DNA of 63,499 nucleotides, the filler included, from an uncultured Methanosarcinales archaeon (lineage in GTDB: Archaea; Nanobdellota; Nanobdellia; Woesearchaeales; CAZXZL01): the NCBI GenBank assembly GCA_964645415.1. It is 5 parts of 5 records of this genome, joined end to end, with 100 filler letters (N's around TTAATTAATTAA, not from the genome) between each part and the next. Parts side by side here need not be neighbours in the genome. Positions count along the whole stretch, not along the records: positions 14,361 to 28,442 come from CAZXZL010000026.1; 4 more parts are not named here. The stretch is one strand, 5' to 3'. Every line of letters begins with the position of its first letter. The first letter of the stretch is position 1. Below the pieces are notes generated by a model. That model saw nothing but the letters and a program-made list of their open reading frames with translations. It ran no database searches and was not told the origin of the DNA. Made by a program: the position numbers and the translations under genes. Below, piece by piece: positions 14,471 to 36,263 of the stretch.

Positions 14471-14472
14471 TT

Positions 14473-15279
14473 TTAACTACTCAATACTTCTTTTATTTCA
14501 CTTAAATGATTCTTTGTATAACTATAACCTCTTTGATAAAATTCTTCCATTTTTTTTACTCTATAAAAAGAAAATATCTCAAACCAAGACCCTATGGTAA
14601 ATATTGTATCATCATATGGTCTAATTGTATAATCAGAATATTTATTACAAATTTTTTCTCTTCTTAAAACTATTGGTAAGTAAACTGCTCTATGAACCAT
14701 TTTTGTTGATCTATTATAATGCTCAACATTTTTATCCCACTTCCCATCTAAGTTTATAGATATTACTTTTCCGTTATTAATTTCTTTTTTAGCAATATCA
14801 GCAGGAACATTATTTAAAACTCCACTATCAACTAATAAACCACATTCTGTTTTTACTGGAGAATAAATCCCAGGAAATGCTGATGATGCAAGTATTGCTT
14901 TTTTTGGATCGCCTTCTTTTAATAATACTAATTCACCATTAATTATATCTGTTGCAGCAATTATTAAATTAATACTAGTATCTTCAATATTTTTATTACA
15001 TATTGAATCAATTAATCTTTCTATATGATTTTGAGAGATAATGCCTCCTTTTTTTCTTGTTGGCCTCATCAACCTTATTCTACTTAATTTAGAATAAAAT
15101 TTTTCTTTAATTGTTTTTGTATCTATCTCATTTGCAATAAAATAACCAAATAATGAACCCATACTACTTGTAACTAATAATTTTGGTATTAAGTTTTCTT
15201 CTTTTAGAGCATCAACAATTCCTAAATGTGAAAATGTTTTAGCTCCACCTCCACCTAATACTAAAGCAAAATCTTTCAT
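14473..15279 (-). CDS. Patatin-like phospholipase (RssA family)
   Basis: LVLGGGGAK, TSSMG nucleophile elbow, ASSAFPG, LVDSG. Confidence 0.88.
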   Translation of the reverse strand: MKDFALVLGGGGAKTFSHLGIVDALKEENLIPKLLVTSSMGSLFGYFIANEIDTKTIKEKFYSKLSRIRLMRPTRKKGGIISQNHIERLIDSICNKNIEDTSINLIIAATDIINGELVLLKEGDPKKAILASSAFPGIYSPVKTECGLLVDSGVLNNVPADIAKKEINNGKVISINLDGKWDKNVEHYNRSTKMVHRAVYLPIVLRREKICNKYSDYTIRPYDDTIFTIGSWFEIFSFYRVKKMEEFYQRGYSYTKNHLSEIKEVLSS

Positions 15280-15526
15280 CTTTACAATTATATTCTCTTA
15301 AATTATATATCTCTTTTGTTTTTTTAATTTTTATATGAGTTATCTAATGCCAATTATCATAATTAATATGTTTAAATTACTTTTAGGAAGATACTATTCA
15401 TTTTACTTTAAAATTTTTAATTTCAATAGTTTAAAAGATAAATTAAAATTAATCAAATTCAAATAAAATACATAATAAATATAATAAACCAAAACTTTTA
15501 TTTATAAAATTGAGGTTACTTAAAAT

Positions 15527-16903
15527 ATGTTAGACAAATTAAGCTCAGGATTAAAAGAATCAATGAAAAAATTGATGAGTTCAAAGTATGCAACAAAAGA
15601 GTTAATTAAATCAGTAGTAAAAGATATTCAAAAATCGCTTATTCAATCTGATGTTGATGTAAGATTAGTTTTAGATCTTACTAAAAGAATTAAAAAGAAG
15701 GCATTAGATTCAACACAAGAAGGACTTACAAAAAAAGAAGAAGTTATTAAAATAGTTTATGATGAACTTGTAGAATTTGTTGGTGAAGGAGGAGAATTAG
15801 ATATTAAAGAAACTCCTTATAAGATTTTATTAGTAGGACTTTTTGGAAATGGAAAAACTACTACAACAGCAAAGTTAGCAAAATATTATAAAAAGAAAGG
15901 TTATAAAGTTGCATTAGTCCAAACAGATACATATAGACCTGCTGCATATAAACAATTAGAACAATTAGTAGAGAATTTAAATATTCCGGTCTATGGACAA
16001 GAGGATAATGATAAAAAAGATGCAAGTCAATTATTTTTAGAATATGAAGATAAATTAAATAATTATGATATTGTATTAGTTGATTCAGCTGGACGTGATG
16101 CACTGAATGATGAATTAATAGATGAGATTTCTAATTTAAATGATGTAGTAATGCCTAATCAAACACTTCTAACAATGTCTGCAGATATTGGTCAAAGTGC
16201 AAAAGAACAAGCAACTGCATTCAAAGAAAGCACTTCTGTAAGTGGAGTTATCATAACAAGAATGGATGGTAGTGCTAAAGGAGGAGGTGCTTTAACAGCA
16301 TGTTCTGTTGCAGATGTACCAGTTAGATTTTTAGGAACTGGTGAAAAGATTGATGATTTAGAAGTTTTTGAACCAGTCAATTTTATTTCTAGACTAATAG
16401 GATTTGGAGATTTAGATAGCTTATTAGAAAAGGCTAAAGAAAGTATAAGTGAAGATAGAGCAGAAGAGCTTTCAAGAAGATTAATGGAGGGAAAGTTTAA
16501 TTTAATTGATTTTTATGAGCAAATGCAAGCAATGAAAAATCTTGGACCAATGAAGAAAGTTATGAATATGATTCCAGGACTTTCTATGGCAAATATCCCA
16601 GGAAATATTTTAGAACAAGAAGAAAAAAAATTAGATTATTGGAAATTTGCTATGCAATCTATGACAGAATATGAATTAAAAAATCCTAAAAGGATTAGAG
16701 ACTCAAGACTGGAGCGGATTTCAGAAGGTTCAGGAGTTTCTAAAAAAACAATTAGAGAGTTATTAAGAATGTTTAGGCAAATGAAAAAGATGACTAAAAA
16801 CCTAAAGGGAAATAAAGGAGATATGAAGAAGATGATGAAAAACTTTAAAGGAATGCCTATGGATAAAATGATGAATCAAATGAAAAATATGAATTTTAAA
16901 TAA
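15527..16903 (+). CDS. srp54: Signal recognition particle protein SRP54
   Basis: GNGKTTT, DTYRPAA, DSAGR, TRMDGSAKGGG, GTGEKIDDLE; Met-rich M domain with SRLERISEGSG. Confidence 0.97.
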   Translation: MLDKLSSGLKESMKKLMSSKYATKELIKSVVKDIQKSLIQSDVDVRLVLDLTKRIKKKALDSTQEGLTKKEEVIKIVYDELVEFVGEGGELDIKETPYKILLVGLFGNGKTTTTAKLAKYYKKKGYKVALVQTDTYRPAAYKQLEQLVENLNIPVYGQEDNDKKDASQLFLEYEDKLNNYDIVLVDSAGRDALNDELIDEISNLNDVVMPNQTLLTMSADIGQSAKEQATAFKESTSVSGVIITRMDGSAKGGGALTACSVADVPVRFLGTGEKIDDLEVFEPVNFISRLIGFGDLDSLLEKAKESISEDRAEELSRRLMEGKFNLIDFYEQMQAMKNLGPMKKVMNMIPGLSMANIPGNILEQEEKKLDYWKFAMQSMTEYELKNPKRIRDSRLERISEGSGVSKKTIRELLRMFRQMKKMTKNLKGNKGDMKKMMKNFKGMPMDKMMNQMKNMNFK

Positions 16904-16934
16904 TTTTTTTAAATACTTATCTAAAAAAATTCAA

Positions 16935-17495
16935 CTACTTCTCTTTGTATAAATGTGCAATTAAGCCACCATCTTTTGATTTAAAATACATTACATCATC
17001 AAAATATGTGTTCATAAACTTCACACCATGACCTAAATTGGTATCATTCATTTCTTTATTAGAATAATCATAATAGTTTTTATCACAATTATTTCTTTTT
17101 ATATCAAGATAATAATCTATAAAATCTGAATCTATTTTATCACCCTCATCTTTTACATTTAATCTGAAATAATTATCATCTACATCATAATATATCTCAA
17201 TATCTTTGTTAGGATCACTATCATTTCCATGTTGATATGCATTTAAAATAGATTCATATATTCCTGTATATAAACTACCAGAAAAACCATAAGATGAGAT
17301 CTCTGAAATTAAATCATCACATACTTTTCTAATTGATGAATCGTAATTATCTGGATCAATATCTACATCAATTTTCTTATAAGAAGAAGGAACTTCATAA
17401 GGATTAGAGTTAAAATTTGAAAGTGAAACTTCTTCATCTTGAAGTATTTGTTCTAATTCAGATTTTTTCCCAAAGATATCATATTCTCCAAACAT
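16935..17495 (-). CDS. RsbW/SpoIIAB-like GHKL Ser/Thr kinase (HATPase_c_2)
   Basis: N box ESILNAYQHGN, G1 VKDEG, G2 LGHGV..M..FDDV. Confidence 0.75.
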   Translation of the reverse strand: MFGEYDIFGKKSELEQILQDEEVSLSNFNSNPYEVPSSYKKIDVDIDPDNYDSSIRKVCDDLISEISSYGFSGSLYTGIYESILNAYQHGNDSDPNKDIEIYYDVDDNYFRLNVKDEGDKIDSDFIDYYLDIKRNNCDKNYYDYSNKEMNDTNLGHGVKFMNTYFDDVMYFKSKDGGLIAHLYKEK

Positions 17496-17633
17496 ATATA
17501 GAATTATAAAAAAGAGTATTTAAATGTTGTGTTATGTTTGTAACTAAAAAGTGACTAATTATTAAATAATAAGATAAGAATAGAAAAATATGAAAAAGTA
17601 GAAGAGTAAAAATAAAAAAAATAAAGTAGAAAA

Positions 17634-20030
17634 TTACTCTACTTCAATTTTACTTATATCATCAAAATTGATTTCTTTTGGATGGTGAATTCCTTGAATA
17701 TCTTTTTCTATTTTTTTGAATTTGTTTGGAAGTGTTATAGAATCAACACCATCTCTTAACTTAATTCCATTTTCTTTTTTGAATTTCCAAACAGAACTAT
17801 TTAGATTAGTTATCTCATCTGTTTCAAAAACACTATCTATCTCTTCATGTTCTATGAAATCAAGATCAACTATTTCTTTATCATAAATTGCAGAATACAA
17901 TTTAGATGTTACTACTGGAATAATTGGATAAAATAACCTTAGGATTCTTTCAAGAACATATCTTAATGTTTTAAGAGCACCTAATTGTTCTGATTCATTA
18001 AATCCATCATCACCATATGCTCTTTTTTTAGCCATTTCTAAATAATGTGAAGCAAATGTTTCCCATAAAAAGTGCTTAATATTAATTGCAGGAGTATGAA
18101 AATCATATTCACTATATTTTTCATCTGCAAGTTTAACTAAATCATTTACTTCACTTCTAATCCATTTATCTAATTCATTATATTCTGGTTCTGCATCAAT
18201 TTTATCAGGATCAGGTAAGAAAGTTAAATACCTTGCAACATTCCACATTTTATTAATAGTTTTTGAAGCACCTTTAATACGTTTATGGCTACATCTAAAA
18301 TCACCGTTTGTTAAATCACCTTCAACAGCAGCCCATAAACGGAATGGTTCTGCACCATGTTCATCTAATATATCTTGTGGATCTATTACATTTCCTTTAG
18401 ATTTAGACATCTTTAATCCATCATCATCTAAAATATGATAATTAATCCAAACATCTTCAAAAGGCATTTCATCAGTTAATTGATTACTTCTCAAAAGAGA
18501 GTAATAAAGCCATGTTCTAACAATTTCTTTTCCTTGGGGTCTTAAGCTCATAGGAAAAGCTTTCTTAAAGAAATCATTATTAATGTTGTATTTAGTATTA
18601 TATAAAGCTGAAATTGAGCTATCAAACCATGTATCAAATACTCTTTTTTCACCTATGAATTCATCATTACCACATTCTGGACATTCATCATATGGTGCAT
18701 CCTCATCCCACGGTCTATAATATTTTCCTTTTTCTTTAGGAACTACAGCATTTTCACATTCACTACAATACCATAAAGGAATTTCTGTTGCATAGAATCT
18801 TCTACGAGAAATTGGCCAGTCAATTTTTAATGAATCTATCCAATTTTCTAAAATTTGTCTTGAAGAAGGATCATAGAAATCCATCTCTTTTGATTTCTCT
18901 TTAATTTCATCTTTAAAATCAAGTTGTTTTAAGTAAAGTTCTTTCATACCAATAAATTCAATTTCATCTTTACTTCTTTCACATATTGGTGTTCTATGTG
19001 CGATGTGTTCTTTTTTAACAATTAAATTATTCTTTTCAAGTTTATTTATTATCTCTTTTCTTGCTTTCTCAACAGGAAGACCTTCTAAGAATCCTGCATT
19101 TTCATTCATATTTCCATCAATATCAATTGCAATTATTGGTTCAATTTCATTTTCTCTAAAAAATCTAACATCTGCAAGGTCACCAAAAGATGCCATCATT
19201 ACAAGACCTGTTCCCTTCTCGGACTTTGCTTGAGGATGAGCTTTAATTGGAACTTCTTTTTCATATAATGGTGTAATTGCTGTTTTTCCATCTAAATGTG
19301 AATATCTATCATCTTCAGGATTAAAAATTAACATTCCAACAGAACATATTAATTCAGGTCTTGTTGTTGCTATAACTAAATCTTCTCCTGTTTCTTTACA
19401 TTTAAAAACAACATGGTTAAAAGTAGAATTTTTTGTATCATACTCTACTTCTGAATCAGCAATAGTTGTTTTACAACCTGGACAGTAATTATTTACTCTA
19501 TCATCAAAATGAATTAAGTTTTTATTCCATAATTCAATAAAAGTTGATTGTGTAAGAGCTCTGTATTCATCAGAATCGGTATAATATAAACTTCCAATTT
19601 CATCTTTTTCTTTATCATAAGAATTAAAACTAACTCCTAAACGATAAAATGAATCAATTGTTTCATCACTACTTGTTTCTAATATTTTTTCACAGTACTC
19701 AATAGCTTTATCACGAGGGACATCAGTTAATTTTACATTATATTCTTCTTCAGCAGCGGTTTCAATAGGTAAACCATTTCTATCAAGGCCTAATGGAAAT
19801 AGAACCCTAAAACCTTTTGTTCTTTTATACCTTGCAAACATATCCATTAATACATAAGTTGTCGCTTGACCAATATGAATAGGTTTATTTACATAAGGAG
19901 GTGGTGTATCAATAGAATATATCTCCTTATCTGAATCGGAATCGAACTTGAATTTATCTTTTTTTTGCCATTCTTTTAAAATTTCTTCTTCAAACTCTTT
20001 GTCCCAGTTTTTTTGTTCTATCTTTGACAT
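17634..20030 (-). CDS. valS: Valine--tRNA ligase (archaeal type)
   Basis: YSIDTPPP, HIGQ, DWPISRRR, FDTWFDSS, LRPQGKEIVRTW, KMSKSKGN. Confidence 0.95.
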   Translation of the reverse strand: MSKIEQKNWDKEFEEEILKEWQKKDKFKFDSDSDKEIYSIDTPPPYVNKPIHIGQATTYVLMDMFARYKRTKGFRVLFPLGLDRNGLPIETAAEEEYNVKLTDVPRDKAIEYCEKILETSSDETIDSFYRLGVSFNSYDKEKDEIGSLYYTDSDEYRALTQSTFIELWNKNLIHFDDRVNNYCPGCKTTIADSEVEYDTKNSTFNHVVFKCKETGEDLVIATTRPELICSVGMLIFNPEDDRYSHLDGKTAITPLYEKEVPIKAHPQAKSEKGTGLVMMASFGDLADVRFFRENEIEPIIAIDIDGNMNENAGFLEGLPVEKARKEIINKLEKNNLIVKKEHIAHRTPICERSKDEIEFIGMKELYLKQLDFKDEIKEKSKEMDFYDPSSRQILENWIDSLKIDWPISRRRFYATEIPLWYCSECENAVVPKEKGKYYRPWDEDAPYDECPECGNDEFIGEKRVFDTWFDSSISALYNTKYNINNDFFKKAFPMSLRPQGKEIVRTWLYYSLLRSNQLTDEMPFEDVWINYHILDDDGLKMSKSKGNVIDPQDILDEHGAEPFRLWAAVEGDLTNGDFRCSHKRIKGASKTINKMWNVARYLTFLPDPDKIDAEPEYNELDKWIRSEVNDLVKLADEKYSEYDFHTPAINIKHFLWETFASHYLEMAKKRAYGDDGFNESEQLGALKTLRYVLERILRLFYPIIPVVTSKLYSAIYDKEIVDLDFIEHEEIDSVFETDEITNLNSSVWKFKKENGIKLRDGVDSITLPNKFKKIEKDIQGIHHPKEINFDDISKIEVE

Positions 20031-20469
20031 TTAAAAAACCCCATAATCGTGATAATATATGTAAATAGTATAACATTTTTATATCTTTTTCTATTATAAA
20101 GCCAAGTAATTACATTCAAATAATCATTCAAATAATATTAATTTTAAATCATTTAAGAGAAATATTTTAAAAAAATATTTCGACAATATTCAATTTGAGG
20201 ATTTTGATTTAATAAGCTTCGCAGAAGATGATACGAAGATACTTTACTTTTTGAGAATACACACTATGTTTGTTTGACACAAAAAAAGAGTGAAGATACA
20301 CACGACAATATGAAGATCTATCCTAAATTATTTTTAATTTACTCTTCTATTTCTTCAATTTTTTAATCTGCTCTTCTATCCCTGTGATAAATTCTACCCT
20401 TTTCTTTAATCTCTTCTTTCATATGTTTTATTTTATAAAATGAAATTAAAGATTTTTATTATAAATTTG

Positions 20470-20680
20470 CTACATACTAAAGAAAATTCAAGTTATATGC
20501 TAAAGAGTGTTTAAAGTAATGTTAAAACAGATAGAGTTTTATGCTAAAGAAATTTTTATTCGTTGAATTGTCTTTCAGAATATAGATATCTAAAAATTTT
20601 TAATTTTTAGGCCCTAAAAACTCTGTTTTTAGATATCAAAATCATCTAATTCATAAGTTCGGATTTTGTAACAAAATCCT
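20470..20680. repeat. Palindrome-rich intergenic block sharing modules with the dispersed repeat family
   Basis: Nested inverted repeats GATATCTAAAAA...TTTTTAGATATC around TTTTTAGG-C-CCTAAAAA; GGATTTTGT-A-ACAAAATCC; shared TCAAAATCATCTAA and CTAAAGA modules. Confidence 0.6.
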
Positions 20681-20816
20681 CTTAAATGATAATATTTATC
20701 ATGATTATTTTTGTTTAATATGTATCTAAAAATTTTCACAAATATTGGAATAATTTAGATTTGAAAAAACAAAATAATTTTTATATCTTTTTCTATTTCT
20801 ATAATAATAGGATAAT

Positions 20817-23309
20817 ATGGATAACATTAAAGAATTAAAGAAAAATGCTACTCCAGCAATGAAACAGTATCTTAACATAAAAGAAGATTATCCAGAACAT
20901 ATAGTCTTATTTAGGATGGGTGATTTTTATGAAACTTTCTATGAAGATGCAAAAAGGGCATCAAAAGAGCTTGGAATCACTTTAACTAAAAGAGGTAATG
21001 ATGAAGTTCCTTTAGCAGGAATTCCTTATAGATCATTAGATCAATATTTATCTAAAATAATTGAAAAAAGAATTAAAGCAGTAATTGTTGAACAATTAGA
21101 AGATCCTAAAGAAGCAAAAGGTGTAGTAAAGAGAGGAGTTATTAAAGAAGTAACTCCTGGAACAATGGATCTTACAGAGTATATGGATGAAAGAGAACCA
21201 AATTATATTTCTTCAATTTATTTTAAAAAGAACAAAGTATATGCATCATTTGCTGATATTACAACATCTGATTTTTTTGTTACAAGTAATTTAAAGAATA
21301 AATTAAAAGATATTATTAATAAATTTGATCCACAAGAAATTGTTGTTGGTAAGACACAATTCATGAATAATCATGATAAAATCTCTTCATTAAGAGAAGA
21401 AATTACTATATCAACAGTAGATGATAGATGTTTTAATAAAAATTTTGCAGAAAAAATATTTAATGAATCAATTCAAAAGAATCTAAAAAATTCTAATTTG
21501 AAAAAAGAAGAAATAACTGTTTGTGGAGGATTATTCTCTTACTTGAGAAAAACACAAAAAGGAGATTTACCTCAATTAAGAGAAATTAAAAGATTTAGAA
21601 ATACAAAAAAGATGAACATAGATCGGTTCACACAAAGAAACTTAGAGTTAACTAAGAATTTATATGATTATACAAAAAAAGATACTTTAATTTCAGTGAT
21701 TGATGAAACAGCTACACCTATGGGATCTAGAAAATTAAAAAAAATAATTGTTGCTCCATTGACTGAAAAAAATAAAATAGAAGAAAGATTGGAATTAGTT
21801 GAATATTTTTATAATAAAGAACTATTATTAGAAAAATTATATGATTTAATGAATCAAATAGGAGATATTGAAAGAAACTTCTTTAAAATAACTAATAAAA
21901 GAATAAATCCTAAAGATTTATATGGATTAAAACTAAGTATTGAAAAAACATATGAAATGTTAAATTTAGTTGATGAAGAAATATTAGATGATTTAATTAA
22001 AGGTTCAACTAAAACTAAAAAAGAAAATATCTTTAAAACACTAGAAGAGTTGTATGAATTCATTGATGAATCAATAATAGATGATCCTATTAATAATTTC
22101 GAAAAAAGAATAATAAAAGAAGGTTACAGCGAAGAATTAGATGAAATTCTTAAAATCTCAGAAAATGCAAGAGAATGGATAAAGGATTTTGAAGAAAGAG
22201 AAAAAGAAAAAACAAACTTAAAAAGCTTAAAAGTTGGATATAATAAAGTCCATGGTTATTATATAGAAGTAAGTAAAAAACAATCAGATAAAGTTCCAGA
22301 AAAATATGATAGAAAACAAACATTAAAAAAATCAGAAAGATATATTACAACAGAATTAAAAGAAAAAGAGAATACAATTCTAAATTCAAAAGAAAGAGTT
22401 CTAAATTTACAAAAAAGAGTATTTGATGAAGTTTTAGAAACAATAAAAACTTTTTCAGATGATTTTAAAAAAATAATTGATGTTATTTCATATCTTGATA
22501 TTGTAACTAATTTTTCAAAAATAGCAAGAAAAAATGATTATATTAAACCAGAATTTACTGAAAGTGAATTTGAAATAAAAAAAGGTAGACACCCTGTTGT
22601 TGAAAAAAGTGTAGAGAATTTTGTATCTAATGATATAAATATGGGAAATAATGAGTTAATGATTTTAACAGGTCCTAATATGGCAGGAAAATCAACATTT
22701 ATGAGACAAAACGCATTAATTGTTGTTATGGCACAAATAGGATCATATGTACCTTGTGAAAGTATTAAACTACCTGTTTTTGATAGAGTTTTTGTGAGAA
22801 TGGGAGCAAGAGATGATATTAGTTCAGGAAAAAGTACATTTTTAGTTGAAATGGAAGAAACAAAAGAGATATTAGATAATGCAACAAAAGATAGCTTTAT
22901 TGTTATAGATGAATTAGGAAGAGGAACAAGTACTTTTGATGGGATTAGTATTGCATGGAGTGTAGCTGAAGAAATTTCTCAGAACATAAAAGCAAGATGT
23001 ATCTTTGCAACACATTATCATTATTTAAACCAGTTATCTTTAAAGTATGAAAATGTGAAAAATAATAAAATAATTGTAAAAGAAAAAGATGGAGAGATTT
23101 ATTTTGTTCATAAAGTTAAGAAAGGTGGAGCAGATAAAAGTTATGGAGTAGAAGTTGCTAAAATAGCTGGATTAAAAAAAGATGTAATTACAAGAGCAAA
23201 AGATATACAAACAATGTTTGAAAAAGAAGCAAATATTAAAGTAATTGATGAGATGACAAAAAGAAACGGTAAAGAAACTCAACTTAATTTAAGAGACTTA
23301 TTTGGATAA
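20817..23309 (+). CDS. mutS: DNA mismatch repair protein MutS1
   Basis: TPAMKQY, FRMGDFYETF, TGPNMAGKST, STFLVEM, DELGRGTST, FATHY, SYGVEVA. Confidence 0.96.
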   Translation: MDNIKELKKNATPAMKQYLNIKEDYPEHIVLFRMGDFYETFYEDAKRASKELGITLTKRGNDEVPLAGIPYRSLDQYLSKIIEKRIKAVIVEQLEDPKEAKGVVKRGVIKEVTPGTMDLTEYMDEREPNYISSIYFKKNKVYASFADITTSDFFVTSNLKNKLKDIINKFDPQEIVVGKTQFMNNHDKISSLREEITISTVDDRCFNKNFAEKIFNESIQKNLKNSNLKKEEITVCGGLFSYLRKTQKGDLPQLREIKRFRNTKKMNIDRFTQRNLELTKNLYDYTKKDTLISVIDETATPMGSRKLKKIIVAPLTEKNKIEERLELVEYFYNKELLLEKLYDLMNQIGDIERNFFKITNKRINPKDLYGLKLSIEKTYEMLNLVDEEILDDLIKGSTKTKKENIFKTLEELYEFIDESIIDDPINNFEKRIIKEGYSEELDEILKISENAREWIKDFEEREKEKTNLKSLKVGYNKVHGYYIEVSKKQSDKVPEKYDRKQTLKKSERYITTELKEKENTILNSKERVLNLQKRVFDEVLETIKTFSDDFKKIIDVISYLDIVTNFSKIARKNDYIKPEFTESEFEIKKGRHPVVEKSVENFVSNDINMGNNELMILTGPNMAGKSTFMRQNALIVVMAQIGSYVPCESIKLPVFDRVFVRMGARDDISSGKSTFLVEMEETKEILDNATKDSFIVIDELGRGTSTFDGISIAWSVAEEISQNIKARCIFATHYHYLNQLSLKYENVKNNKIIVKEKDGEIYFVHKVKKGGADKSYGVEVAKIAGLKKDVITRAKDIQTMFEKEANIKVIDEMTKRNGKETQLNLRDLFG

Positions 23310-23997
23310 AATGGAATCAGGAATTGATGAAGCAGGGAGAGGACCGGTAATAGGACCAATGGTAATTGTTGGCATAAAAAGTGATGTTGAACCATTAAAA
23401 GAATTAAATGTTAATGATTCAAAATTAATTAAGAAAGAAAAAAGAGAATCATTATTTAATGATATTTTATCTGTAATTGATGATTATTCAACAAAAGTAA
23501 TTAGTCCTGAAGAGATTGATAAGTCTGTATTATCACAAGATTCAAATCTTAATAAATTAGAGTTCCAAAATTTTTATGAAATTATTTTAGAACTAAGACC
23601 AAAAAAAATTATAATAGATTGTCCTATCTCAAATAATACAAATTTTTTATATAAGTTTTCAAAGTATTTTGAAGAAGTATTAAATGAAAAAGGAACTGTT
23701 AAAGAAAATAGGCTTAATTTTAAAGAGATGGAAATTATTGCAGAAAACAAAGCCGATGAAAAATATCCTATTGTTAGTGGAGCATCAATTATTGCAAAAG
23801 TGATAAGAGATAGAGAAATAGAAAAAATCAAAGATGAAATTGGTTTCGACTTTGGATCAGGTTATCCTAGCGATCCTAAGACAAAAGAATTTATTAAAGA
23901 AAATTGGGATAAATACGATAATATCTTTAGAAAAAGTTGGACAACATGGAAAAGACTTAAGAGAAAAAAGTCTCAAAATAATTTATTAGATTATTAA
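23302..23997 (+). CDS. rnhB: Ribonuclease HII
   Basis: GIDEAGRGPVIGPM, DSK, KAD..YPIVSGASIIAKV.RD, GSGYPSDP, RKSW. Confidence 0.96.
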   Translation: MDKMESGIDEAGRGPVIGPMVIVGIKSDVEPLKELNVNDSKLIKKEKRESLFNDILSVIDDYSTKVISPEEIDKSVLSQDSNLNKLEFQNFYEIILELRPKKIIIDCPISNNTNFLYKFSKYFEEVLNEKGTVKENRLNFKEMEIIAENKADEKYPIVSGASIIAKVIRDREIEKIKDEIGFDFGSGYPSDPKTKEFIKENWDKYDNIFRKSWTTWKRLKRKKSQNNLLDY

Positions 23998-24128
23998 GTA
24001 TAGCTTTAAAAATATTCTCTCAAAATTTAAAAAATTCAAAACAAACAAGTTATTTTTTAATTCTAAGTTATATGATATTTGAAAATTCTAAATGAAAATT
24101 AAAAAGATATTTTATAGAAATAAAGAAT

Positions 24129-24393
24129 GCGGCGAGGCTAAAATCGATAGGGGATAGAAAGATGGCTACACTCTTCAGCTCCACTCCGCGCCCCTACAAG
24201 CACGCACTATAATACTTAGAGCTGCTTCATTCCTGACCTGACTCAATTCATATTATAACACGTCTAGTAGGACAGAGCTTCGACACCTACAAATGTAGAC
24301 AAACTAACTATCCAACTATCTTTTTTAGCTTTTCGGTCCCACCATATAGTCCAGTTGTGGTTAAAGTGTGGACTAGCCACTTGACCTAGCCGC
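24129..24393 (-). ncRNA. ffs: Archaeal SRP (7S) RNA
   Basis: Minus strand: helix 1 GCGGC/GCCGC; Alu domain with AGUCC/GGACU kissing loops; helix 8 GAGU-CAGG-UCA-GGAA-UGA-AGCA-GCUC; TATA-like element about 25 nt upstream; GC-rich against the background. Confidence 0.93.
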
Positions 24394-24501
24394 AATTTGA
24401 TAAAGACATCATAATATATAAATTAATTGATAAGTATAGAAAAATTTCTTATTAGATAATAGTAACACAAAAATAAAAAGATAAAATAGTCAAATAAAGA
24501 T

Positions 24502-25749
24502 ATGGGGTCTTTAGATAAAGAATTAAAAAATCAGTACTTAAAACTAAAATCTGAATTAGCTGATGATGACGAAAAAAAAAGAATGTTGAATACTGTTAAG
24601 ACCAATACAAATAATTTAGAAAATAAAAAGAGTCAAAAAGAAATATTAAATAATTTAATTAAAAAATACAGAAAAGAAAATCATAAAGTTAAAAGATTAA
24701 AAAAACAACTTCAAAAGAAAATTAAACAATTTGAAAGAGTAGAAGAGATAGAAAATAAGTTAAATAAAAAAGAAGAAGAATTAAAAAAAGACAGAATAGA
24801 ATTTCTAAAAGAAAAAAATAACACATTAGAAGAATTAAATTCTAAAAAAGTCAATCTTGAAAAAAAGGAAGAAGAATTAAAAGAAAAAGAAGAGAAAATA
24901 AATTTTGAAAAAGATATTATTTCTAAAAACAACTTTAAATATGATAACAAACATTTAGAATCATTAAAAAATGTTTTAAATAAAGAAAAAGAAGTTCAAG
25001 AATTGAAAAAAGAGATTAAAGATGAAAAAGTAAAAATTGAAATGAAAAAAGATGAATTAGAAGAACTTAATGAAGAGTTAAAGGATGAGAGAAATAGATT
25101 AAACAATTGGAGAAAAGAACTAATAAAAAGAGAAGATGAGATTACATATAGAGAATATAAAATTAAGAAAGAAAAAGAAGAAATCAACCAAGATTTGGAT
25201 AAAATAGATAAAGAAGAGCTAAAAGAAAATTTAAATGAAGATAGCTTTGAATCATTAAATAATATCAAAGAAACATTAAATAAAATAGAGAAAAAAGAAA
25301 AAGACATAACTTTAAAAGAAGAATCAATTAGAAAGGAAAAAGAAAAAGTAAAAGAAACATTAAATAAAGTTGAAAAGATAATTAATAAAAATGAAGAAAA
25401 ATTAAAAACAACTATTAAAAAACTAAAAGAAAAAGAAAATAAGTTGGTTAAAAAAGAAGAAAAAATAAAAGAAAAAGAAAACAAATTAAATAAAGGTGAA
25501 ATGACAGAGCTTAATAAAAAGATAAAAAAAGCTAAAAAAGAAGTTGAAAAATATCAAACTGAGTCAAGAAAAATAAAATCTGATATTCACCATAAGTTAA
25601 GAAAAATAAAAGAAAAAGAAAAAATAATTAATGAAAAAGAAAAAAATCTAAGTTTAAAAGAAAATAAACTTAAAAAAAGAGAGAAAAAGATAGAGAAATT
25701 AAAAGAAAAAACATTAGGTATAATAAAAAAAGTAGAAAATGATAAATGA
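24502..25749 (+). CDS. Long Lys/Glu-rich coiled-coil protein
   Basis: 415 aa, nearly all heptad K/E repeats; no catalytic motifs. Confidence 0.75.
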   Translation: MGSLDKELKNQYLKLKSELADDDEKKRMLNTVKTNTNNLENKKSQKEILNNLIKKYRKENHKVKRLKKQLQKKIKQFERVEEIENKLNKKEEELKKDRIEFLKEKNNTLEELNSKKVNLEKKEEELKEKEEKINFEKDIISKNNFKYDNKHLESLKNVLNKEKEVQELKKEIKDEKVKIEMKKDELEELNEELKDERNRLNNWRKELIKREDEITYREYKIKKEKEEINQDLDKIDKEELKENLNEDSFESLNNIKETLNKIEKKEKDITLKEESIRKEKEKVKETLNKVEKIINKNEEKLKTTIKKLKEKENKLVKKEEKIKEKENKLNKGEMTELNKKIKKAKKEVEKYQTESRKIKSDIHHKLRKIKEKEKIINEKEKNLSLKENKLKKREKKIEKLKEKTLGIIKKVENDK

Positions 25750-25766
25750 GAATATAGGTTTTTAAC

Positions 25767-27743
25767 ATGAAAAATTATAATTATCAATGGGAAATTAATT
25801 CAAAAAAGAAAAATAATTCTTTAAACATAAATGACTTTGAGAGAAGTTATGGACCTAAAGTTATTAAAAGAGATGATAAAGGAAAAGCAAAAGAAGTAGA
25901 AATTAATATTTTATTAAAAAATTCTAATGTCGAACTTTTTCTTGTTGGTGAATTTAACCAATGGGGAAAAAAATATATAGAGAAATATAAGTTTAAACAA
26001 GATAATAAAGGAATTGCTTGTATAAAAACAAATAAAATCAAACATAAAACAAAATATAAAATAATGTGGAAAAAAGGTTCTGAAAAAAAATTCTTCCAAG
26101 ATCCAGCATCATATTATTTTGATGATTTAGGAAATAGTATTTTTTGGGATTTTGAAGATCCTAATTCTTATAATATGAAAACTGATTTCATCAATAATTT
26201 TGATCGATCTGTCAAAATAGTTCAAACTGAATTAAGTGGACTTATTAGCCATTGGTGTAATAAAAAAGGAATTTGTGGAAATCAAATTCCAAAAAAGGAC
26301 TATTATAAATTTATAACAAATTCAGGCGTAATTAAAGAATTAAAAGATCTTGGATTTAATACGATTCAATTTTTACCATTAAATCAAAGTATTGATGGAG
26401 ATAATTGGAAATATAGATACTTAATTCCTTTTCATTATGCAATACAAAAAAACTGGGGTACCCCAGATGATTTTGCAGAGATGGTTGATGAATTTCATAA
26501 ACATGGAATTGCAGTAATAAATGATTTTATAATTAGTCACCTTCCACATAAAGACTTTGAAATATTTGGTTTAAAGTGTGATGAAAATGGAATACATCAA
26601 TGGATAAAAGAAGACAATGAAAGGTTATACATGAAAGATAATACTCATTGGGGAACAAAAAGAATAAATTTTGATGATAAAGAGATAAGAAGATTTTTTA
26701 TTGAAAGTGCAATAGATATGATGAAGAATTACAGATTAGATGGTTTTAGAATAGATAATGTTGATGGGATAATTAGATATGGACCTAATGGTAGAGGAGA
26801 TGAAAGACCTAATGGTAGAACATTTCTTCGTGAATTAAATAAAGAAATTTACAAATATAATCGTTTTTCAATGATTAATTTTGAAGCTCATTATTTTAAA
26901 GATGAAAATGCAAAATTATTAGTAGCTCCTTTTGATGAAGATGAAAGAGCATTAGGAGCAACAGCATATAATAGTTCAAGAATGACATATTATTTTCACA
27001 AAGAATTTATGATTGAAGACGCCAAAAAGATAAGTGCTTGGAGGTTTAAACATATTCTTGAAGAAAAAGAGTGGGGAAAATCAAATTCAGTTGTTGCAGA
27101 TTTTCACAATCATGATGCTGCAGCAGGATTAATGGATGGAAGATGTACTGGATCTTATGCATATGATGCAATGACACATAATAATCCTCACAATCATATA
27201 CATGCAATTGGTAAGATAAAAGTGATGGAAGCAATAATTTCTTTTATGTGTGAAGGTAGAACTTTAGATTTAATTCAAAGTCATTTATTACAAGAAGGAA
27301 CTTTTGAACATGATTGCTCAGTTCAATGGCATCTAAGATTTCATCAAGCAAATAAAAACTGTTTAAATTTTAAAAAAGAAGTTAATAAAATCATGGATCA
27401 TCCTGCGTTTTGGCCAAAAAACGTTGATAAGAGAAAAATTTTAAATGTTGATGATGAAAATAAAATTCTAGTTATTAAAAGATCTTCTAAAGATGAAAGT
27501 TATTTAATTGTAATTAGTCTTTCTTCATGGATACATCATAATTATAAAGTCGGATTAGATAATAAAAAAGACTATAAATTAGTATTAAACTCAGATTTAT
27601 TTGAATATTCTGGTTTTGGGATGATAGGTTTACCTAAAGAATTTGAAAACAAACCTAGTAATAATTTTGAATTACTTGAAAGAGAAATAGAAATACCTAA
27701 GTTAGCTCCATATCATGTTATTGTTCTAAAAGAAATGAATTAG
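25767..27743 (+). CDS. glgB: 1,4-alpha-glucan branching enzyme (GH13)
   Basis: LVGEFNQW, WGTPDDF..MVDEFHKHGIAVI.D, THWGT, LDGFRID.V, NHD, YKLVLNSD..EYSG. Confidence 0.88.
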   Translation: MKNYNYQWEINSKKKNNSLNINDFERSYGPKVIKRDDKGKAKEVEINILLKNSNVELFLVGEFNQWGKKYIEKYKFKQDNKGIACIKTNKIKHKTKYKIMWKKGSEKKFFQDPASYYFDDLGNSIFWDFEDPNSYNMKTDFINNFDRSVKIVQTELSGLISHWCNKKGICGNQIPKKDYYKFITNSGVIKELKDLGFNTIQFLPLNQSIDGDNWKYRYLIPFHYAIQKNWGTPDDFAEMVDEFHKHGIAVINDFIISHLPHKDFEIFGLKCDENGIHQWIKEDNERLYMKDNTHWGTKRINFDDKEIRRFFIESAIDMMKNYRLDGFRIDNVDGIIRYGPNGRGDERPNGRTFLRELNKEIYKYNRFSMINFEAHYFKDENAKLLVAPFDEDERALGATAYNSSRMTYYFHKEFMIEDAKKISAWRFKHILEEKEWGKSNSVVADFHNHDAAAGLMDGRCTGSYAYDAMTHNNPHNHIHAIGKIKVMEAIISFMCEGRTLDLIQSHLLQEGTFEHDCSVQWHLRFHQANKNCLNFKKEVNKIMDHPAFWPKNVDKRKILNVDDENKILVIKRSSKDESYLIVISLSSWIHHNYKVGLDNKKDYKLVLNSDLFEYSGFGMIGLPKEFENKPSNNFELLEREIEIPKLAPYHVIVLKEMN

Positions 27744-27750
27744 AAAAATG

Positions 27751-28001
27751 GTGGTTTCACCAGGATTGTTTTAATAACATATTATTTTTCACTTATTAGC
27801 TCACTTACCTTATTAAATAAATATTTAACTTCAGAGTCATCTATTTTCTAGTCTAACTCTTCTTCATCAAATACTTACCCATAAAGTAAGCTTATACGCT
27901 AATATTAGCTAATAGTAATATGTTATTTCCTCTCCTGGTTTTTCGGTCTCATCATAAAGTCCTGATGAAATAGGTAATGACTAAATACCCGACCTAACCA
28001 C
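27751..28001 (-). ncRNA. SRP-RNA-like paralog (intact Alu domain, degenerate helix 8)
   Basis: GUGGUU/AACCAC, GGUC/GACC, GGGUA/UACCU, UCAUCA/UGAUGA, AGUC/GACU loop complementarity, GACCGAAAA junction, CCAGGA/UCCUGG, 12-bp AAUAACAUAUUA/UAAUAUGUUAUU; TATA about 25 nt upstream; T-run downstream. Confidence 0.8.
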
Positions 28002-28072
28002 TATAGTATATACGTAAAAATAGATATATAAATTTTATGATAAAATAACAAAGAAAAGTTAAAAAAAACTAT

Positions 28073-28442
28073 TTACTCATACCTTAATGCATCAACAGGA
28101 TTTATTTTACTTGCTTTCATTGCTGGTCTAAGTCCTGATAACATTCCAACAATTACAGAAAAAGCCAAAAGTCCAACAGCTTGCATTATTTCAAATTCTA
28201 TTCTGAAAACTGTTAAGTCAAAAAAGTTTAATAGAATATATTCAGCACTCATTGATAAACCTAAACCCAAACTCAAACCAATAAGTCCTCCAATCATACC
28301 TAAAAAACCTGCTTCAACTAAAAAAATAGTCATTACGTCTTCATTTCTAGCTCCCATAGATTTCATAATTCCAATCTCACGAAAACGATTTAAAACAGAA
28401 GAATACATTGTACTTGCAATACTTACAGCACTAACTAAAAGT
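28073..28442 (-). CDS. ABC transporter permease (MacB/FtsX family), C-terminal fragment cut by the gap
   Basis: MYSSVLNRFREIGIMKSMGA, FLVEAG, PAMKASKINPVDALRYE; frame stays open to the gap. Confidence 0.9.
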
Positions 28443-28565
28443 NNNNNNNNNNNNNNNNNNNNNNNNNNNNNNNNNNNNNNNNNNNNTTAATTAATTAANN
28501 NNNNNNNNNNNNNNNNNNNNNNNNNNNNNNNNNNNNNNNNNNTGATAAAGATTGAGATAAAATGA

Positions 28566-36133: not shown

Positions 36134-36263
36134 GTGGGGGTTGCCGAGTGGTCAAAGGCGCTGGACTCAAGATATTTGAGTTATGATGCATGAGATGATA
36201 TGTTTAATCTATGGGACATCCAGTCCAATAGATGGTTCGAGGGTTCGAATCCCTTCCCCCACA
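36134..36263 (+). tRNA. tRNA-Leu(CAA) with 46-nt intron at 37/38 (36172-36217)
   Basis: Acceptor GTGGGGG/CCCCCAC-A; anticodon stem CTGGA/TCCAG with CAA; BHB central helix CUCA/UGGG; long variable arm; GGTTCGAATCC. Confidence 0.92.

What the first reader, a model, noticed from the sequence alone, without database searches (positions are those of the whole stretch)
27751..28001. Second, SRP-like RNA gene: intact Alu domain but no SRP54-binding motif
Seen in sequence: the minus strand mirrors the SRP RNA at 24129-24393 helix for helix, with compensatory changes. Helix 1 is GUGGUU/AACCAC (GCGGC/GCCGC in the SRP RNA). Helix 2 GGUC/GACC and the GACCGAAAA junction are identical. Helices 3 and 4 differ in sequence but keep AGUC/GACU loop-loop complementarity. 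Helix 5 continues with CCAGGA/UCCUGG, a perfect 12-bp stem and GCUUACUUUAU/AUAAGGUAAGU. The terminal hairpin is AGAGUUA-GA-CUA-GAAAA-UAG-A-UGACUCU instead of GAGU-CAGG-UCA-GGAA-UGA-AGCA-GCUC. The gene has its own TATA box and a downstream T-run. Established: the helix-8 CAGG/AGCA loop binds the SRP54 M domain, and the Alu domain contacts the ribosomal factor-binding site to slow elongation. Inference: stems kept through covariation argue for selection rather than decay. This could be an archaeal 'Alu-like' RNA (analogous to 7SL-derived BC200/Alu RNAs) acting as a signal-independent ribosome brake, a hibernation RNA, or a scaffold for a different protein. I know of no description of such a paralog in archaea.
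Basis: partly seen in the sequence, partly recalled or inferred. Interest (0 to 1): 0.92.

Follow-up and report, generated by a model that had tools for sequence, protein, structure and literature searches.

The report
Diverged second SRP-like RNA gene
A tiny soda-lake archaeon carries, 3.6 kb from its normal signal-recognition-particle RNA gene, a second, strongly diverged copy that keeps the RNA's overall fold but has lost the site where the targeting protein SRP54 binds, so it may be a new kind of SRP-derived RNA or a slowly dying duplicate.

Summary
Window 27748-28004 (minus strand) is a full-length homologue of the archaeal SRP RNA. No Rfam family matches it. A covariance model built only from 29 relatives' SRP RNAs aligns it end to end at 51.6 bits; the genuine SRP RNA at 24126-24396 scores 168.7.

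The Alu-type 5' domain is largely kept (38.2 versus 49.3 bits). The S domain is almost erased (16.2 versus 95.7 bits): the SRP54-binding loops, the GGAA tetraloop and the conserved helix-5 loops are changed or deleted. The Alu domain is not fully intact, because the UGUNR turn reads UAUU and loop 4 is 3 nt shorter.

Base pairing is kept at 75 of 85 consensus pairs, with 29 two-sided changes relative to the real SRP RNA. Half-converted pairs are far rarer and the fold far more stable than under any neutral-decay model tried. A perfect TATA box lies 31 nt upstream and a T5 run follows.

No counterpart turned up in 364 other genomes, 11 syntenic loci or two pattern scans, and no RNA data exist.

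Best reading (0.5): a lineage-specific SRP-derived RNA kept for its structure and independent of SRP54. Main rival (0.3): a decaying duplicate.

The parts
27748..28004 (-). SRP-like RNA gene (CAND), about 251-257 nt.
   Evidence: Model R2 (built from 29 relatives' SRP RNAs) aligns model positions 1-275 at 51.6 bits. MFE -81.9 kcal/mol, z -10.07. The plus strand reaches only -51.5 kcal/mol, z -5.08. No ORF of 20 aa or more lies in 27744-28072 on either strand.
27936..28004 (-). Alu-type 5' domain: the 5' strand of helix 1, helices 2, 3 and 4, loop 3 / loop 4 pairing AGUC/GACU, and the junction GACCGAAAA.
   Evidence: Model R1 gives 38.2 bits, E 9.4e-8 genome-wide. Four of the 5 loop-loop pairs are kept, and across 31 sequences those pairs covary. 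The UGUNR position reads UAUU and loop 4 is 3 nt shorter.
27833..27860 (-). Apical hairpin at the position of helix 8, with degenerate loops. The symmetric loop is UAGA / A-UG instead of CAGG / AGCA, and the end loop is GAAAA instead of GGAA.
   Evidence: R2 and R3 alignments. In MAFFT alignment A3, SRP0 keeps all 20 highly conserved helix-8 columns and CAND keeps 10 of 20. CUA/UAG in place of the real SRP RNA's UCA/UGA.
28025..28032 (-). TATA box TTTATATA. Its first base lies 31 nt upstream of G28001, and four A's sit directly upstream.
   Evidence: Sequence. At tRNA genes of this genome, 11 of 16 TATA-like boxes with at most 1 mismatch start 27-35 nt upstream. The 11-mer AATTTATATAT occurs 15 times in the genome, including upstream of both SRP0 and CAND.
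27744..27748 (-). T5 run directly after the 3' strand of helix 1, a likely archaeal termination signal. It abuts the stop codon of the convergent glycosidase gene at 27741-27743.
   Evidence: Sequence and ORF table.
24126..24396 (-). The genuine SRP RNA (SRP0), the paralogue used for comparison.
   Evidence: RF01857 114.9 bits against a cut-off of 96.5. R2 168.7, R1 49.3 and R3 95.7 bits.
16493..16792 (+). M-domain match of the only SRP54 gene found in the genome (context only: the protein the new RNA probably no longer binds).
   Evidence: PF02978 gives 100.2 bits and is the single match in G000, at C26:2133-2432. Window coordinates are contig coordinates plus 14360.

Best explanation
CAND is a lineage-specific, strongly diverged paralogue of the SRP RNA gene that is, or until recently was, kept by selection as a structured RNA in its own right.

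Shown:
- It is homologous to SRP RNA over its whole length.
- It keeps helix 1, the three-helix Alu-type 5' domain with its loop-loop pairing, a long helix-5 rod and an apical hairpin.
- Its helices were converted from G-C to A-U almost without half-converted pairs.
- The S-domain signatures are changed or deleted. These are the symmetric loop that forms the SRP54-binding motif, the GGAA tetraloop, and the conserved GUCC / GGGUAGCGG helix-5 loops.
- It has its own consensus TATA box at the distance used by stable-RNA genes of this genome, and an oligo-T tail.

Inferred:
- It is transcribed on its own.
- It does not assemble with SRP54, so it does not target proteins.
- It acts through what it has kept. 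The Alu-like cap on a rod of SRP-like length would dock at the ribosomal elongation-factor site that the SRP Alu domain uses, or would compete with SRP for that site.

My odds are about 0.5 that it is a selected, SRP54-independent RNA. Within that, I put only about half on the ribosome-directed Alu-like mode.
For: Homology:
- R2 gives 51.6 bits end to end, and R1 gives 38.2 bits. Neither model contains any sequence of this genome.

Domain contrast:
- Alu 5' domain 38.2 against 49.3 bits; S domain 16.2 against 95.7 bits.

Pairing:
- 75 canonical, 10 non-canonical and 6 gapped of 91 consensus pairs. The real SRP RNA has 78/9/4.
- Against SRP0: 33 pairs the same, 6 changed on one side, 29 changed on both sides, of which 12 are purine-pyrimidine flips.
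- Changed near-invariant pairs stay paired. C-G became U-A at the pair that is C-G in 30 of 30 real SRP RNAs and at the one that is C-G in 29 of 30. C-G became A-U by a double transversion at a pair that is C-G in 25 of 30.

Controls:
- Partner permutation gives 34.8 +/- 4.3 canonical pairs (max 50 of 5000). Uniform decay of SRP0 gives 38.8 +/- 4.3 of 87.
- A mutation spectrum taken from CAND's own changed conserved loops gives 51% +/- 5.5% canonical, max 68%, against 88% observed.
- The friendliest null, with only G>A and C>U drift, predicts about 10 A.C and about 17 G.U pairs. CAND has 1 and 6, which is reached jointly in 0 of 9000 simulations at each of the five mutation rates tried.
- At matched G+C that null gives -0.200 +/- 0.028 kcal/mol per nt. 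CAND has -0.323, reached in 0 of 300 simulations.

Strand asymmetry:
- MFE -81.9 against -51.5 kcal/mol, which points to an RNA-level rather than a DNA-level constraint.

Expression signals and setting:
- Promoter and terminator as described.
- CAND plus its promoter fill the whole 329-nt gap between two convergent stop codons in a genome that is about 89% open frames.
- CAND has 30.7% G+C against 13.2% in its own upstream spacer.

Assembly:
- Contigs of three runs cover it with no difference.
Against: - It is a singleton. No full-length low-scoring second copy sits beside a normal SRP RNA in 364 other genomes scanned with R2. None lies next to the glycosidase homologue in 11 syntenic loci. 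None was found by one degenerate pattern in two large contig collections. Covariation among orthologues therefore cannot be tested.
- Its G+C content (30.7%) is far below that of the other stable RNAs here (SRP0 44.6%, rRNA regions 47-52%) and close to the genome mean of 25.2%.
- It has changed 30 of 70 highly conserved SRP RNA columns, including the UGUNR motif.
- The total count of canonical pairs alone does not reject pure AT-directed transition drift. That null reaches CAND's value in 12-22% of simulations.
- The pair counts come from an alignment fitted to the model's structure, which leans towards pairing.
- All functional steps (transcription, no SRP54 binding, ribosome contact) are inference.
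Confidence: 0.5

Rival explanations
1. A non-functional relic. An SRP RNA gene was duplicated or horizontally acquired, lost its function, and is drifting towards the genome's A+T-rich composition. Its hairpin shape survives because G-C to A-U conversion by two transitions preserves pairing, and because part of its difference from SRP0 was inherited from a working ancestor.
For: - No counterpart in 364 other genomes or in 11 syntenic loci.
- G+C only 30.7%.
- 30 of 70 conserved columns changed; the S-domain motifs and UGUNR are lost.
- Pure G>A/C>U drift keeps 83% +/- 4.5% of pairs canonical and reaches CAND's 88% in 12-22% of simulations.
- 65 of CAND's 75 canonical pair types are also seen at the same position in some real SRP RNA.
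- Partial or broken SRP RNA copies do occur in this order: an Alu fragment in G071, an S-domain fragment in G006, and an internally replaced copy in G177.
Against: - The same drift model predicts about 10 A.C and about 17 G.U pairs, against 1 and 6 observed (0 of 9000 jointly at each rate tried).
- At matched G+C it predicts -0.200 kcal/mol per nt, against -0.323 observed (0 of 300).
- The mutation spectrum actually seen in CAND's conserved loops includes transversions and A>G, and would leave only 51% of pairs canonical.
- Near-invariant pairs were changed on both sides, one of them by a double transversion.
- The perfect TATA box is retained at the right distance.
- A comparably altered copy in G177 folds at only z -2.06, against -10.07 here.
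- A 329-nt relic would be unusual in a 0.96-Mb, roughly 89% coding genome.
Confidence: 0.3
2. A cis-acting structured element rather than a free RNA. It could be a long 3'-UTR hairpin or terminator of the FtsX-type permease gene, which ends 69 nt upstream on the same strand. It could also be a barrier between the convergent permease and glycosidase transcripts, built from a recycled SRP RNA copy.
For: - It lies directly downstream of the permease stop codon (28073) on the same strand.
- It abuts the stop codon of the convergent gene at 27741-27743.
- A very stable rod followed by a T-run would stop or protect transcripts.
Against: - A terminator or barrier needs no Alu-type three-helix domain, no loop-loop complementarity and no helix 1, yet all are kept.
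- It has its own consensus TATA box between the permease stop codon and the RNA start.
- None of the 11 glycosidase loci in relatives has such an element.
Confidence: 0.08
3. A second working SRP RNA that still binds SRP54 through a non-canonical helix 8 and takes part in protein targeting.
For: - Full-length SRP architecture and similar length (251-257 nt against 271 nt).
- The asymmetric-loop letters GAA / AA and the A-G of the 5' symmetric loop survive.
- Some real SRP RNAs of the order, such as that of G090 (locus L044), also lack a GGAA tetraloop.
- Two full-length SRP RNAs with intact S domains occur in G171 and G453.
Against: - The S-domain model gives 16.2 bits against 95.7 for SRP0 and 68-85 bits for both copies in G171.
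- The letters GUCAGG and AGCAGC are identical in at least 27 of 30 real SRP RNAs. In CAND, 5 of the 8 loop letters are changed, and the 3' side has 3 letters instead of 4.
- Only one SRP54 gene is present.
Confidence: 0.07
4. Chance hairpin, dispersed repeat or assembly artefact.
For: A+T-rich genomes hold many hairpins. The window is a chain of contigs, and this contig ends 441 nt away.
Against: - Covariance-model E-values of 9.4e-8 and 3.3e-12 genome-wide.
- BLASTN of CAND against its own genome gives only itself over its full length; all other hits cover at most 38 nt, with E >= 0.017.
- Contigs of three sequencing runs cover it with 0 differences. One 6634-nt contig spans from the glycosidase gene through CAND to the contig end.
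Confidence: 0.02

Closest known systems
Archaeal SRP RNA (7S RNA; Rfam RF01857 Archaea_SRP), in the helix-6-less form used by this order
   Same: - Same overall architecture and similar length.
- Helix 1; helices 2-4 with loop 3 / loop 4 pairing; an A-rich three-way junction; a long helix 5; an apical hairpin at the place of helix 8.
- End-to-end alignment to an order-specific SRP RNA model.
- Same promoter 11-mer as the real SRP RNA gene.
   Different: - No RF01857 hit at E <= 10.
- R2 score of 51.6 bits, against 130.6-267.2 bits for end-to-end matches (model 1-275) over 100 bits in 150 relatives.
- The SRP54-binding symmetric loop, the GGAA tetraloop, the conserved helix-5 loops and the UGUNR motif are all changed or deleted.
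- G+C of 30.7% against 40-67%.
Eukaryotic 7SL-derived RNAs (Alu, B1, BC200, 4.5S-type RNAs). This comparison is recalled from general knowledge and comes from no call.
   Same: An SRP-RNA-derived RNA that keeps the Alu-type end but not the SRP54-binding function. The proposed mode, acting on ribosomes or translation without protein targeting, would be analogous.
   Different: - Those RNAs lack the S-domain region altogether and spread by retroposition. Here the whole rod is kept as a helix, and there is one chromosomal copy 3.6 kb from the parent gene.
- Those RNAs bind SRP9/14. No SRP9 or SRP14 homologue is found in this genome.
- Passages of PMC4238359 discuss that archaea may have no Alu-binding protein.
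Protein-free prokaryotic SRP Alu domains (Pyrococcus horikoshii, PMC4238359; Bacillus subtilis, PMC4231752)
   Same: - Helices 2 and 4 with helix 3, joined in a three-helix junction.
- Pairing between the two hairpin loops.
- Helix 1 closing a junction stabilised by adenosines (passages of PMC4238359). CAND keeps all of these at the secondary-structure level.
- The abstract of PMC4231752 (search listing) states that the Alu domain arrests translation by competing with elongation-factor binding.
   Different: - In CAND the U-turn linker is UAUU (3-4 nt, no G, no closing purine).
- The 5' adenosines of loop 4, which form the G:A pair and base triples in P. horikoshii, are missing, and stem 4 is extended by Watson-Crick pairs instead.
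- Whether the tertiary fold survives is untested.

Membership tests
Archaeal SRP RNA (RF01857) | Reaches the Rfam gathering score of the family model | tested here: not met
   No RF01857 match at the gathering threshold, at E <= 10 on 27500-28250, or at E <= 10 over the whole genome. SRP0 scores 114.9 bits.
Archaeal SRP RNA (RF01857) | Full-length homology to SRP RNAs of related organisms | tested here: met
   R2, built from 29 relatives only, aligns model positions 1-275 at 51.6 bits, E 3.3e-12 genome-wide. The model's calibration is shortened, so its E-values are rough.
Archaeal SRP RNA (RF01857) | Small (Alu) domain: helices 2, 3 and 4 with tertiary pairing between loops 3 and 4, closed by helix 1 | tested here: met
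   R1 gives 38.2 bits. This is within the lower tail of real SRP RNAs of the order, which range from 32.8 to 93.9 bits. Four of 5 loop-loop pairs are kept, and those pairs covary across 31 sequences, with 4 of 5 showing two-sided changes. Helix 1 has 6 bp.
Archaeal SRP RNA (RF01857) | UGUNR U-turn motif between helices 3 and 4 (PMC2905702, passages) | tested here: not met
   CAND reads U-A-U-U(-U). The closing A is kept in at least 27 of 30 real SRP RNAs but not in CAND. The paper notes that some real archaeal SRP RNAs also deviate from the motif.
Archaeal SRP RNA (RF01857) | SRP54-binding motif of helix 8 (symmetric loop CAGG / AGCA) and a GRRA, mostly GGAA, tetraloop (PMC2905702) | tested here: not met
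   CAND has UAGA / A-UG and GAAAA. The S-domain model R3 gives 16.2 bits (E 0.013 in 5.4 kb) against 95.7 for SRP0. In MAFFT alignment A3, SRP0 keeps all 20 highly conserved helix-8 columns and CAND keeps 10 of 20.
Archaeal SRP RNA (RF01857) | Conserved internal loops of helix 5 next to helix 8 (the region of the 5e motif; here CUGUCC / GGGUAGCGG) | tested here: not met
   3 and 6 model positions are deleted and the flanking letters changed. In CAND the region forms a nearly continuous duplex.
Archaeal SRP RNA (RF01857) | Helix 6 with SRP19 | tested here: not met
   Absent, but also absent from the genuine SRP RNAs of this order. The 40-nt helix-6 region is 1 nt long in SRP0. SRP19 (PF01922) scores over the cut-off in 0 of 61 genomes, G000 included. 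This feature therefore does not discriminate here.
Archaeal SRP RNA (RF01857) | Binds SRP54 and supports co-translational targeting | not testable with these tools
   Needs binding assays. The only relevant finding is that the genome has a single SRP54 gene.
7SL-derived Alu-like RNAs (eukaryotic; definition recalled) | Derived from SRP RNA, Alu end kept, SRP54-binding part lost | tested here: met
   Alu 5' domain 38.2 against 49.3 bits; S domain 16.2 against 95.7 bits.
7SL-derived Alu-like RNAs (eukaryotic; definition recalled) | Binds SRP9/14; central S region deleted; multiplied by retroposition | tested here: not met
   No SRP14 or SRP9 match in the genome at E <= 1. The central rod is retained. 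The genome holds a single copy.

The most novel reading that the evidence does not exclude
This would be the first free-standing, SRP-RNA-derived 'Alu-like' RNA in a prokaryote. An archaeal SRP RNA gene was duplicated and one copy shed its SRP54 site. That copy was then kept under selection as a rod with an Alu-type cap that docks at the ribosomal elongation-factor site. It would slow or park ribosomes, or compete with SRP's own arrest function, independently of signal sequences. This would be a convergent counterpart of eukaryotic Alu/BC200-type RNAs.
Probability: 0.25. Interest if true: 0.85.

Novelty: new variant of a known kind. Interest (0 to 1): 0.58.

Why it matters
SRP RNA is treated as a single-copy, single-purpose RNA in bacteria and archaea. 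Spin-off RNAs that reuse its Alu end are known only from eukaryotes. A selected archaeal paralogue without an SRP54 site would show that such reuse also arose in a prokaryote. It would also give a natural separation-of-function tool for asking what a protein-free archaeal Alu domain does on the ribosome, which the passages read from PMC4238359 leave open. If it proves to be a relic instead, it is still a useful case of how A+T pressure reshapes a structured RNA while keeping its helices.

Tried and rejected
- **Rfam.** All 4227 families were run on 27500-28250 at E <= 10. The only hit was a chance snoRNA match on the other strand outside the element.
- **BLASTN.** CAND against 41 genomes gave only short A+T-rich chance hits.
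- **RF01857 over 151 genomes of the order.** One real hit per genome, and no second copy detectable this way.
- **Apparent second copies that are not paralogues.**
  - G004 and G149 (R1) and G153 (R2) are pieces of one gene at contig ends. G137's two partial R2 matches look like the same thing: one piece lies 60-131 nt from its contig's end, but the other was not inspected.
  - G022 has its Alu and S parts on two contigs.
- **Other partial or duplicate copies.**
  - G071 holds a truncated Alu fragment and G006 an 81-nt S-domain fragment.
  - G177 is an internally replaced, poorly folding copy (z -2.06), and no S domain was found in that assembly.
  - G171 and G453 each hold two full-length copies with intact S domains. 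This may be real duplication or mixed bins.
- **Neighbouring glycosidase protein in metagenome contigs.** No relative found.
- **Degenerate CAND-specific pattern.** 0 matches in metagenome contigs and 0 in genome contigs. This one pattern would miss orthologues whose loops differ.
- **Synteny.** The 11 loci with the best glycosidase homologues (57-62% identity) have no SRP-like RNA at E < 0.01.
- **Sequencing runs.** No RNA holder is listed. Three DNA runs of one soda-lake study hold the stretch, and two of them may be the source of the assembly. Expression therefore could not be examined. The laid contigs show presence and contiguity only.
- **Alu-binding or extra SRP proteins.** SRP14, SRP9 and SRP19 are not found, and SRP54 is single.
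- **The 415-aa gene between the two RNAs.** It encodes a Lys/Glu-rich coiled-coil-like protein with no Pfam family, and I found no reason to link it to CAND.
- **Earlier notes of this scan.** Nothing for this genome or this sequence.
- **R-scape.** Not available, and with no orthologues it would have nothing to test.
Full report
**Context.** The window is a chain of contigs of one 0.96-Mb archaeal genome (79 contigs, 25.2% G+C, completeness 100, contamination 1.46).
- The finding lies on contig C26, which is window 14361-28442. That contig also carries the only SRP54 gene and the genuine SRP RNA.
- The genome is the only member of its family among the species representatives held. All comparison genomes belong to other families of a very large order.
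- DNA runs that hold the stretch are soda-lake metagenomes of one study.
- The local gene order is MutS, RNase HII, SRP RNA (24126-24396, minus strand), a 415-aa Lys/Glu-rich protein, an alpha-amylase-family protein (25767-27743, plus strand), the candidate (called CAND here), then the 3' end of an FtsX-type permease gene (28073-28408, minus strand) and the contig end.

**Observation.**
- The minus strand of 27751-28001 folds into helix 1, a three-helix 5' domain, a long rod and an apical hairpin. The MFE is -81.9 kcal/mol, z = -10.07.
- The plus strand reaches only -51.5 kcal/mol, z = -5.08. The constraint therefore acts on the minus-strand RNA, not on a DNA palindrome.
- No ORF of 20 aa or more lies in the 329-nt gap between the two convergent stop codons.
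- CAND is not a dispersed repeat.
- It is covered without a single difference by contigs of three runs.

**Homology.** Rfam does not see CAND. RF01857 hits only the real SRP RNA (114.9 bits), and no family matches at E <= 10. I therefore built three covariance models from the SRP RNAs of 29 genomes of other families, leaving out both sequences of this genome.

| Model | Covers | SRP0 (bits) | CAND (bits) |
|---|---|---|---|
| R1 | Alu 5' domain, 72 positions | 49.3 | 38.2 |
| R2 | full length, 275 positions, 91 pairs | 168.7 | 51.6 |
| R3 | S-domain core, 103 positions | 95.7 | 16.2 |

- R1 gives nothing else in the genome at E <= 10. Its hit on CAND has E 9.4e-8 genome-wide.
- R2 aligns CAND end to end, with E 3.3e-12 genome-wide.
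- R3's hit on CAND has E 0.013 in 5.4 kb.
- The models' calibration is shortened, so these E-values are rough.
- CAND is thus a true, full-length SRP RNA homologue. Its Alu end is largely kept and its S-domain signature is almost erased.

**Domain by domain.**
- *Alu end.* Helices 1-4 pair. Four of the five loop 3 / loop 4 pairs are kept, and these pairs covary across 31 sequences (97.8% of cells paired, 0 of 500 shuffles as high). The A-rich junction GACCGAAAA is identical to SRP0's.
- *Not fully intact.* The UGUNR U-turn motif, defined in passages of PMC2905702, reads UAUU. Loop 4 lacks 3 nt at the side that carries structural adenosines in the Pyrococcus horikoshii Alu structure (PMC4238359 passages).
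- *S region.* The symmetric loop CAGG / AGCA is UAGA / A-UG. The GGAA tetraloop is GAAAA. The conserved CUGUCC / GGGUAGCGG loops of helix 5 are deleted, leaving an almost continuous duplex.
- *Conserved columns.* Of 70 columns identical in at least 27 of 30 real SRP RNAs, CAND keeps 40.

**Selection or decay?** On the model-fitted alignment, CAND forms standard pairs at 75 of 85 consensus positions that carry letters. SRP0 forms 78 of 87, and the other 29 sequences form 82-89 of 91.
- Against SRP0, 33 pairs are the same, 6 differ on one side and 29 differ on both sides. Of the 29, 17 are transitions only and 12 are purine-pyrimidine flips.
- Controls, from least to most favourable to decay:
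  - Partner permutation gives 34.8 +/- 4.3 canonical pairs.
  - Uniform decay of SRP0 to the same divergence gives 38.8 +/- 4.3 of 87.
  - The substitution spectrum seen in CAND's own conserved unpaired columns gives 51% +/- 5.5% canonical, max 68%.
  - Pure G>A / C>U drift, which preserves helices well, gives 83% +/- 4.5% and reaches CAND's 88% in 12-22% of runs.
- The plain pair count therefore does not exclude A+T drift. That last model fails on two other measures:
  - It predicts about 10 A.C and about 17 G.U pairs where CAND has 1 and 6. This is reached jointly in 0 of 9000 simulations at each of the five mutation rates tried.
  - At CAND's G+C content it gives -0.200 +/- 0.028 kcal/mol per nt where CAND has -0.323, reached in 0 of 300 simulations. 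This second measure needs no alignment.
- Near-invariant pairs were changed on both sides. C-G became U-A at a pair that is C-G in 30 of 30 real SRP RNAs and at one that is C-G in 29 of 30. C-G became A-U by a double transversion where 25 of 30 have C-G.
- I conclude that pairing was under selection in CAND's own lineage after it left the SRP RNA sequence constraints.
- Caveats: the alignment leans towards the model's structure. The ancestor is unknown, and CAND is no closer to SRP0 (48.8% identity overall, 69% in the Alu part) than to several other SRP RNAs. Some differences may therefore be inherited from a working ancestor.

**Expression signals.**
- A perfect TTTATATA starts 31 nt upstream of G28001.
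- At tRNA genes of this genome, 11 of 16 TATA-like boxes with at most one mismatch start 27-35 nt upstream.
- The 11-mer AATTTATATAT occurs 15 times in the genome. Two of these are upstream of SRP0 and CAND, and several others precede likely leaderless genes.
- A T5 run follows the 3' strand of helix 1.
- CAND has 30.7% G+C against 13.2% in its own promoter spacer. That is still far below SRP0 at 44.6%.
- No RNA run was available, so transcription remains inferred.

**Distribution.** R2 was run over 150 other genomes of the order, 134 further genomes (132 of the class and 2 of the order) and 80 more of the order, 364 in all.
- These tallies include genomes flagged unpublished (G112, G131, G182, G205, G207, G209). 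Only their hit counts are used.
- End-to-end matches (model positions 1-275) over 100 bits score 130.6-267.2 bits within the order. None of the 364 genomes has a full-length, low-scoring copy beside a normal one.
- Extra matches fall into four kinds:
  - contig-end pieces in G004, G149 and G153, and probably G137;
  - fragments in G071 and G006;
  - an internally replaced, poorly folding copy in G177, z -2.06;
  - two intact copies in G171 and in G453, which may be real duplications or mixed bins.
- With more than 40 genomes per call the filters are stricter and only 12-24 candidates per genome are scored. CAND itself was nevertheless recovered under the settings, the two scans that included this genome.
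- The best homologues of the neighbouring glycosidase (57-62% identity, 11 loci) have no SRP-like RNA nearby.
- Searches of metagenome and genome contig collections with that protein or with one degenerate CAND pattern found nothing.
- CAND is therefore a singleton at the present sampling, and covariation among orthologues cannot be tested.

**Interpretation.**
- Best reading (0.5): a lineage-specific SRP-RNA paralogue maintained as a structured RNA that no longer assembles with SRP54.
  - What it retains suggests, by inference only, action through the Alu-type end. It keeps the Alu-type cap, helix 1 and a rod of SRP-like length.
  - The abstract of PMC4231752 (search listing) says this end arrests translation by competing with elongation factors.
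- Rivals:
  - a decaying duplicate (0.3);
  - a cis-acting 3' structure between convergent genes (0.08);
  - a second SRP54-binding SRP RNA (0.07);
  - an artefact (0.02).

**Comparison and novelty.**
- CAND fails the defining features of a working archaeal SRP RNA: the Rfam threshold, UGUNR, the helix-8 motif and the helix-5 loops. It meets those of homology and of Alu secondary structure.
- It works most like the eukaryotic 7SL-derived Alu-type RNAs (recalled, no call). It is not a member of that group: the genome has no SRP9/14, the central rod is retained, and there is a single copy.
- Three full-text searches found no description of an archaeal SRP RNA paralogue: 'SRP RNA' + archaea + paralog; 'SRP RNA' + DPANN; 'SRP RNA' + 'second copy' + prokaryot. 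For most papers I saw only listings and abstracts. For PMC2905702 and PMC4238359 I read passages.
- I rate it a new variant of a known kind. It is interesting but rests on one metagenome-assembled genome without expression data.

Noticed in passing
window 24126-24396 and SRP RNA loci L022-L051; whole order: The genuine SRP RNAs of this order are only about 270 nt long and lack helix 6; the 40-nt helix-6 part of RF01857 is 1 nt in SRP0. SRP19 (PF01922) scores over its cut-off in 0 of 61 genomes searched, G000 included. PMC2905702 (2010, passages read) states that SRP19 was found in all archaeal subgroups and coexists with helix 6. I did not check whether this loss is already described for this group.
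   Followed up: partly
L084:400-445 (G071), L103 (G076), L110 (G171:C4), L107 (G453:C137): Several SRP RNA genes of the order carry an insertion of 22-23 nt (37 nt in G453) inside the apical part of helix 8. It sits between the tetraloop region and AGCAGC. The inserted letters look the same in G071 and G076, which belong to different families. It could be a small intron or a mobile mini-insert.
   Followed up: no
L084:162-223 (G071:C52): A truncated second copy of the SRP RNA 5' Alu fragment (helices 2-3 and the start of helix 4; 38.6 bits with R1) lies about 20 nt upstream of the intact SRP RNA gene. It resembles the promoter / 5'-fragment duplications noted elsewhere in this scan.
   Followed up: partly
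G040:C9:12657-12821, G157:C1:1214457-1214614, G225:C4:68772-68943: In one family of the order (f41), the only SRP RNA matches cover model positions 81 to 251 at the widest. This suggests SRP RNAs that have lost the Alu domain altogether. G040 had no match with R1; G157 and G225 were not scanned with R1.
   Followed up: no
L111:394-570 (G177:C19): A 177-nt SRP-like sequence has a well-conserved Alu 5' domain and helix 1, but about 104 unrelated nt replace the 202-position centre. It folds poorly (z -2.06), and no S domain was found anywhere in that 98%-complete assembly.
   Followed up: partly
G171:C4:24065-24361 and G171:C32:6299-6563; G453:C137:660-969 and G453:C2:15508-15778: Two genomes each hold two full-length SRP RNAs with intact S domains. 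In G171 they score 236.6 and 161.4 bits with R2, and 84.5 and 76.3 bits with R3. A congener of G171 (G072) has one copy. Whether this is real duplication or mixed bins was not resolved.
   Followed up: partly
window 36134-36263 (+): A tRNA gene with a 49-nt insertion in the anticodon arm (45.3 bits), presumably an intron. It lies on a different contig from the finding.
   Followed up: no
window 24502-25749 (+): A 415-aa ORF between the two SRP-type RNA genes encodes an extremely Lys/Glu-rich, coiled-coil-like protein with no Pfam family. Contigs of other organisms in the runs share repeats with it.
   Followed up: no
window 28146-28319: Run X2 holds a second contig over the FtsX-type gene with 13 differences in 174 nt (depth 8.1 against 21.5). 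This could be a closely related strain or a paralogous gene in the same sample. If it is a strain, it may be the best place to look for an orthologue of the new RNA.
   Followed up: no
window 14261-14360, 28443-28542 and further N blocks: The window is a chain of separate contigs joined by N spacers. The finding's contig ends 441 nt upstream of the RNA, so the permease gene and anything beyond it are cut off.
   Followed up: yes
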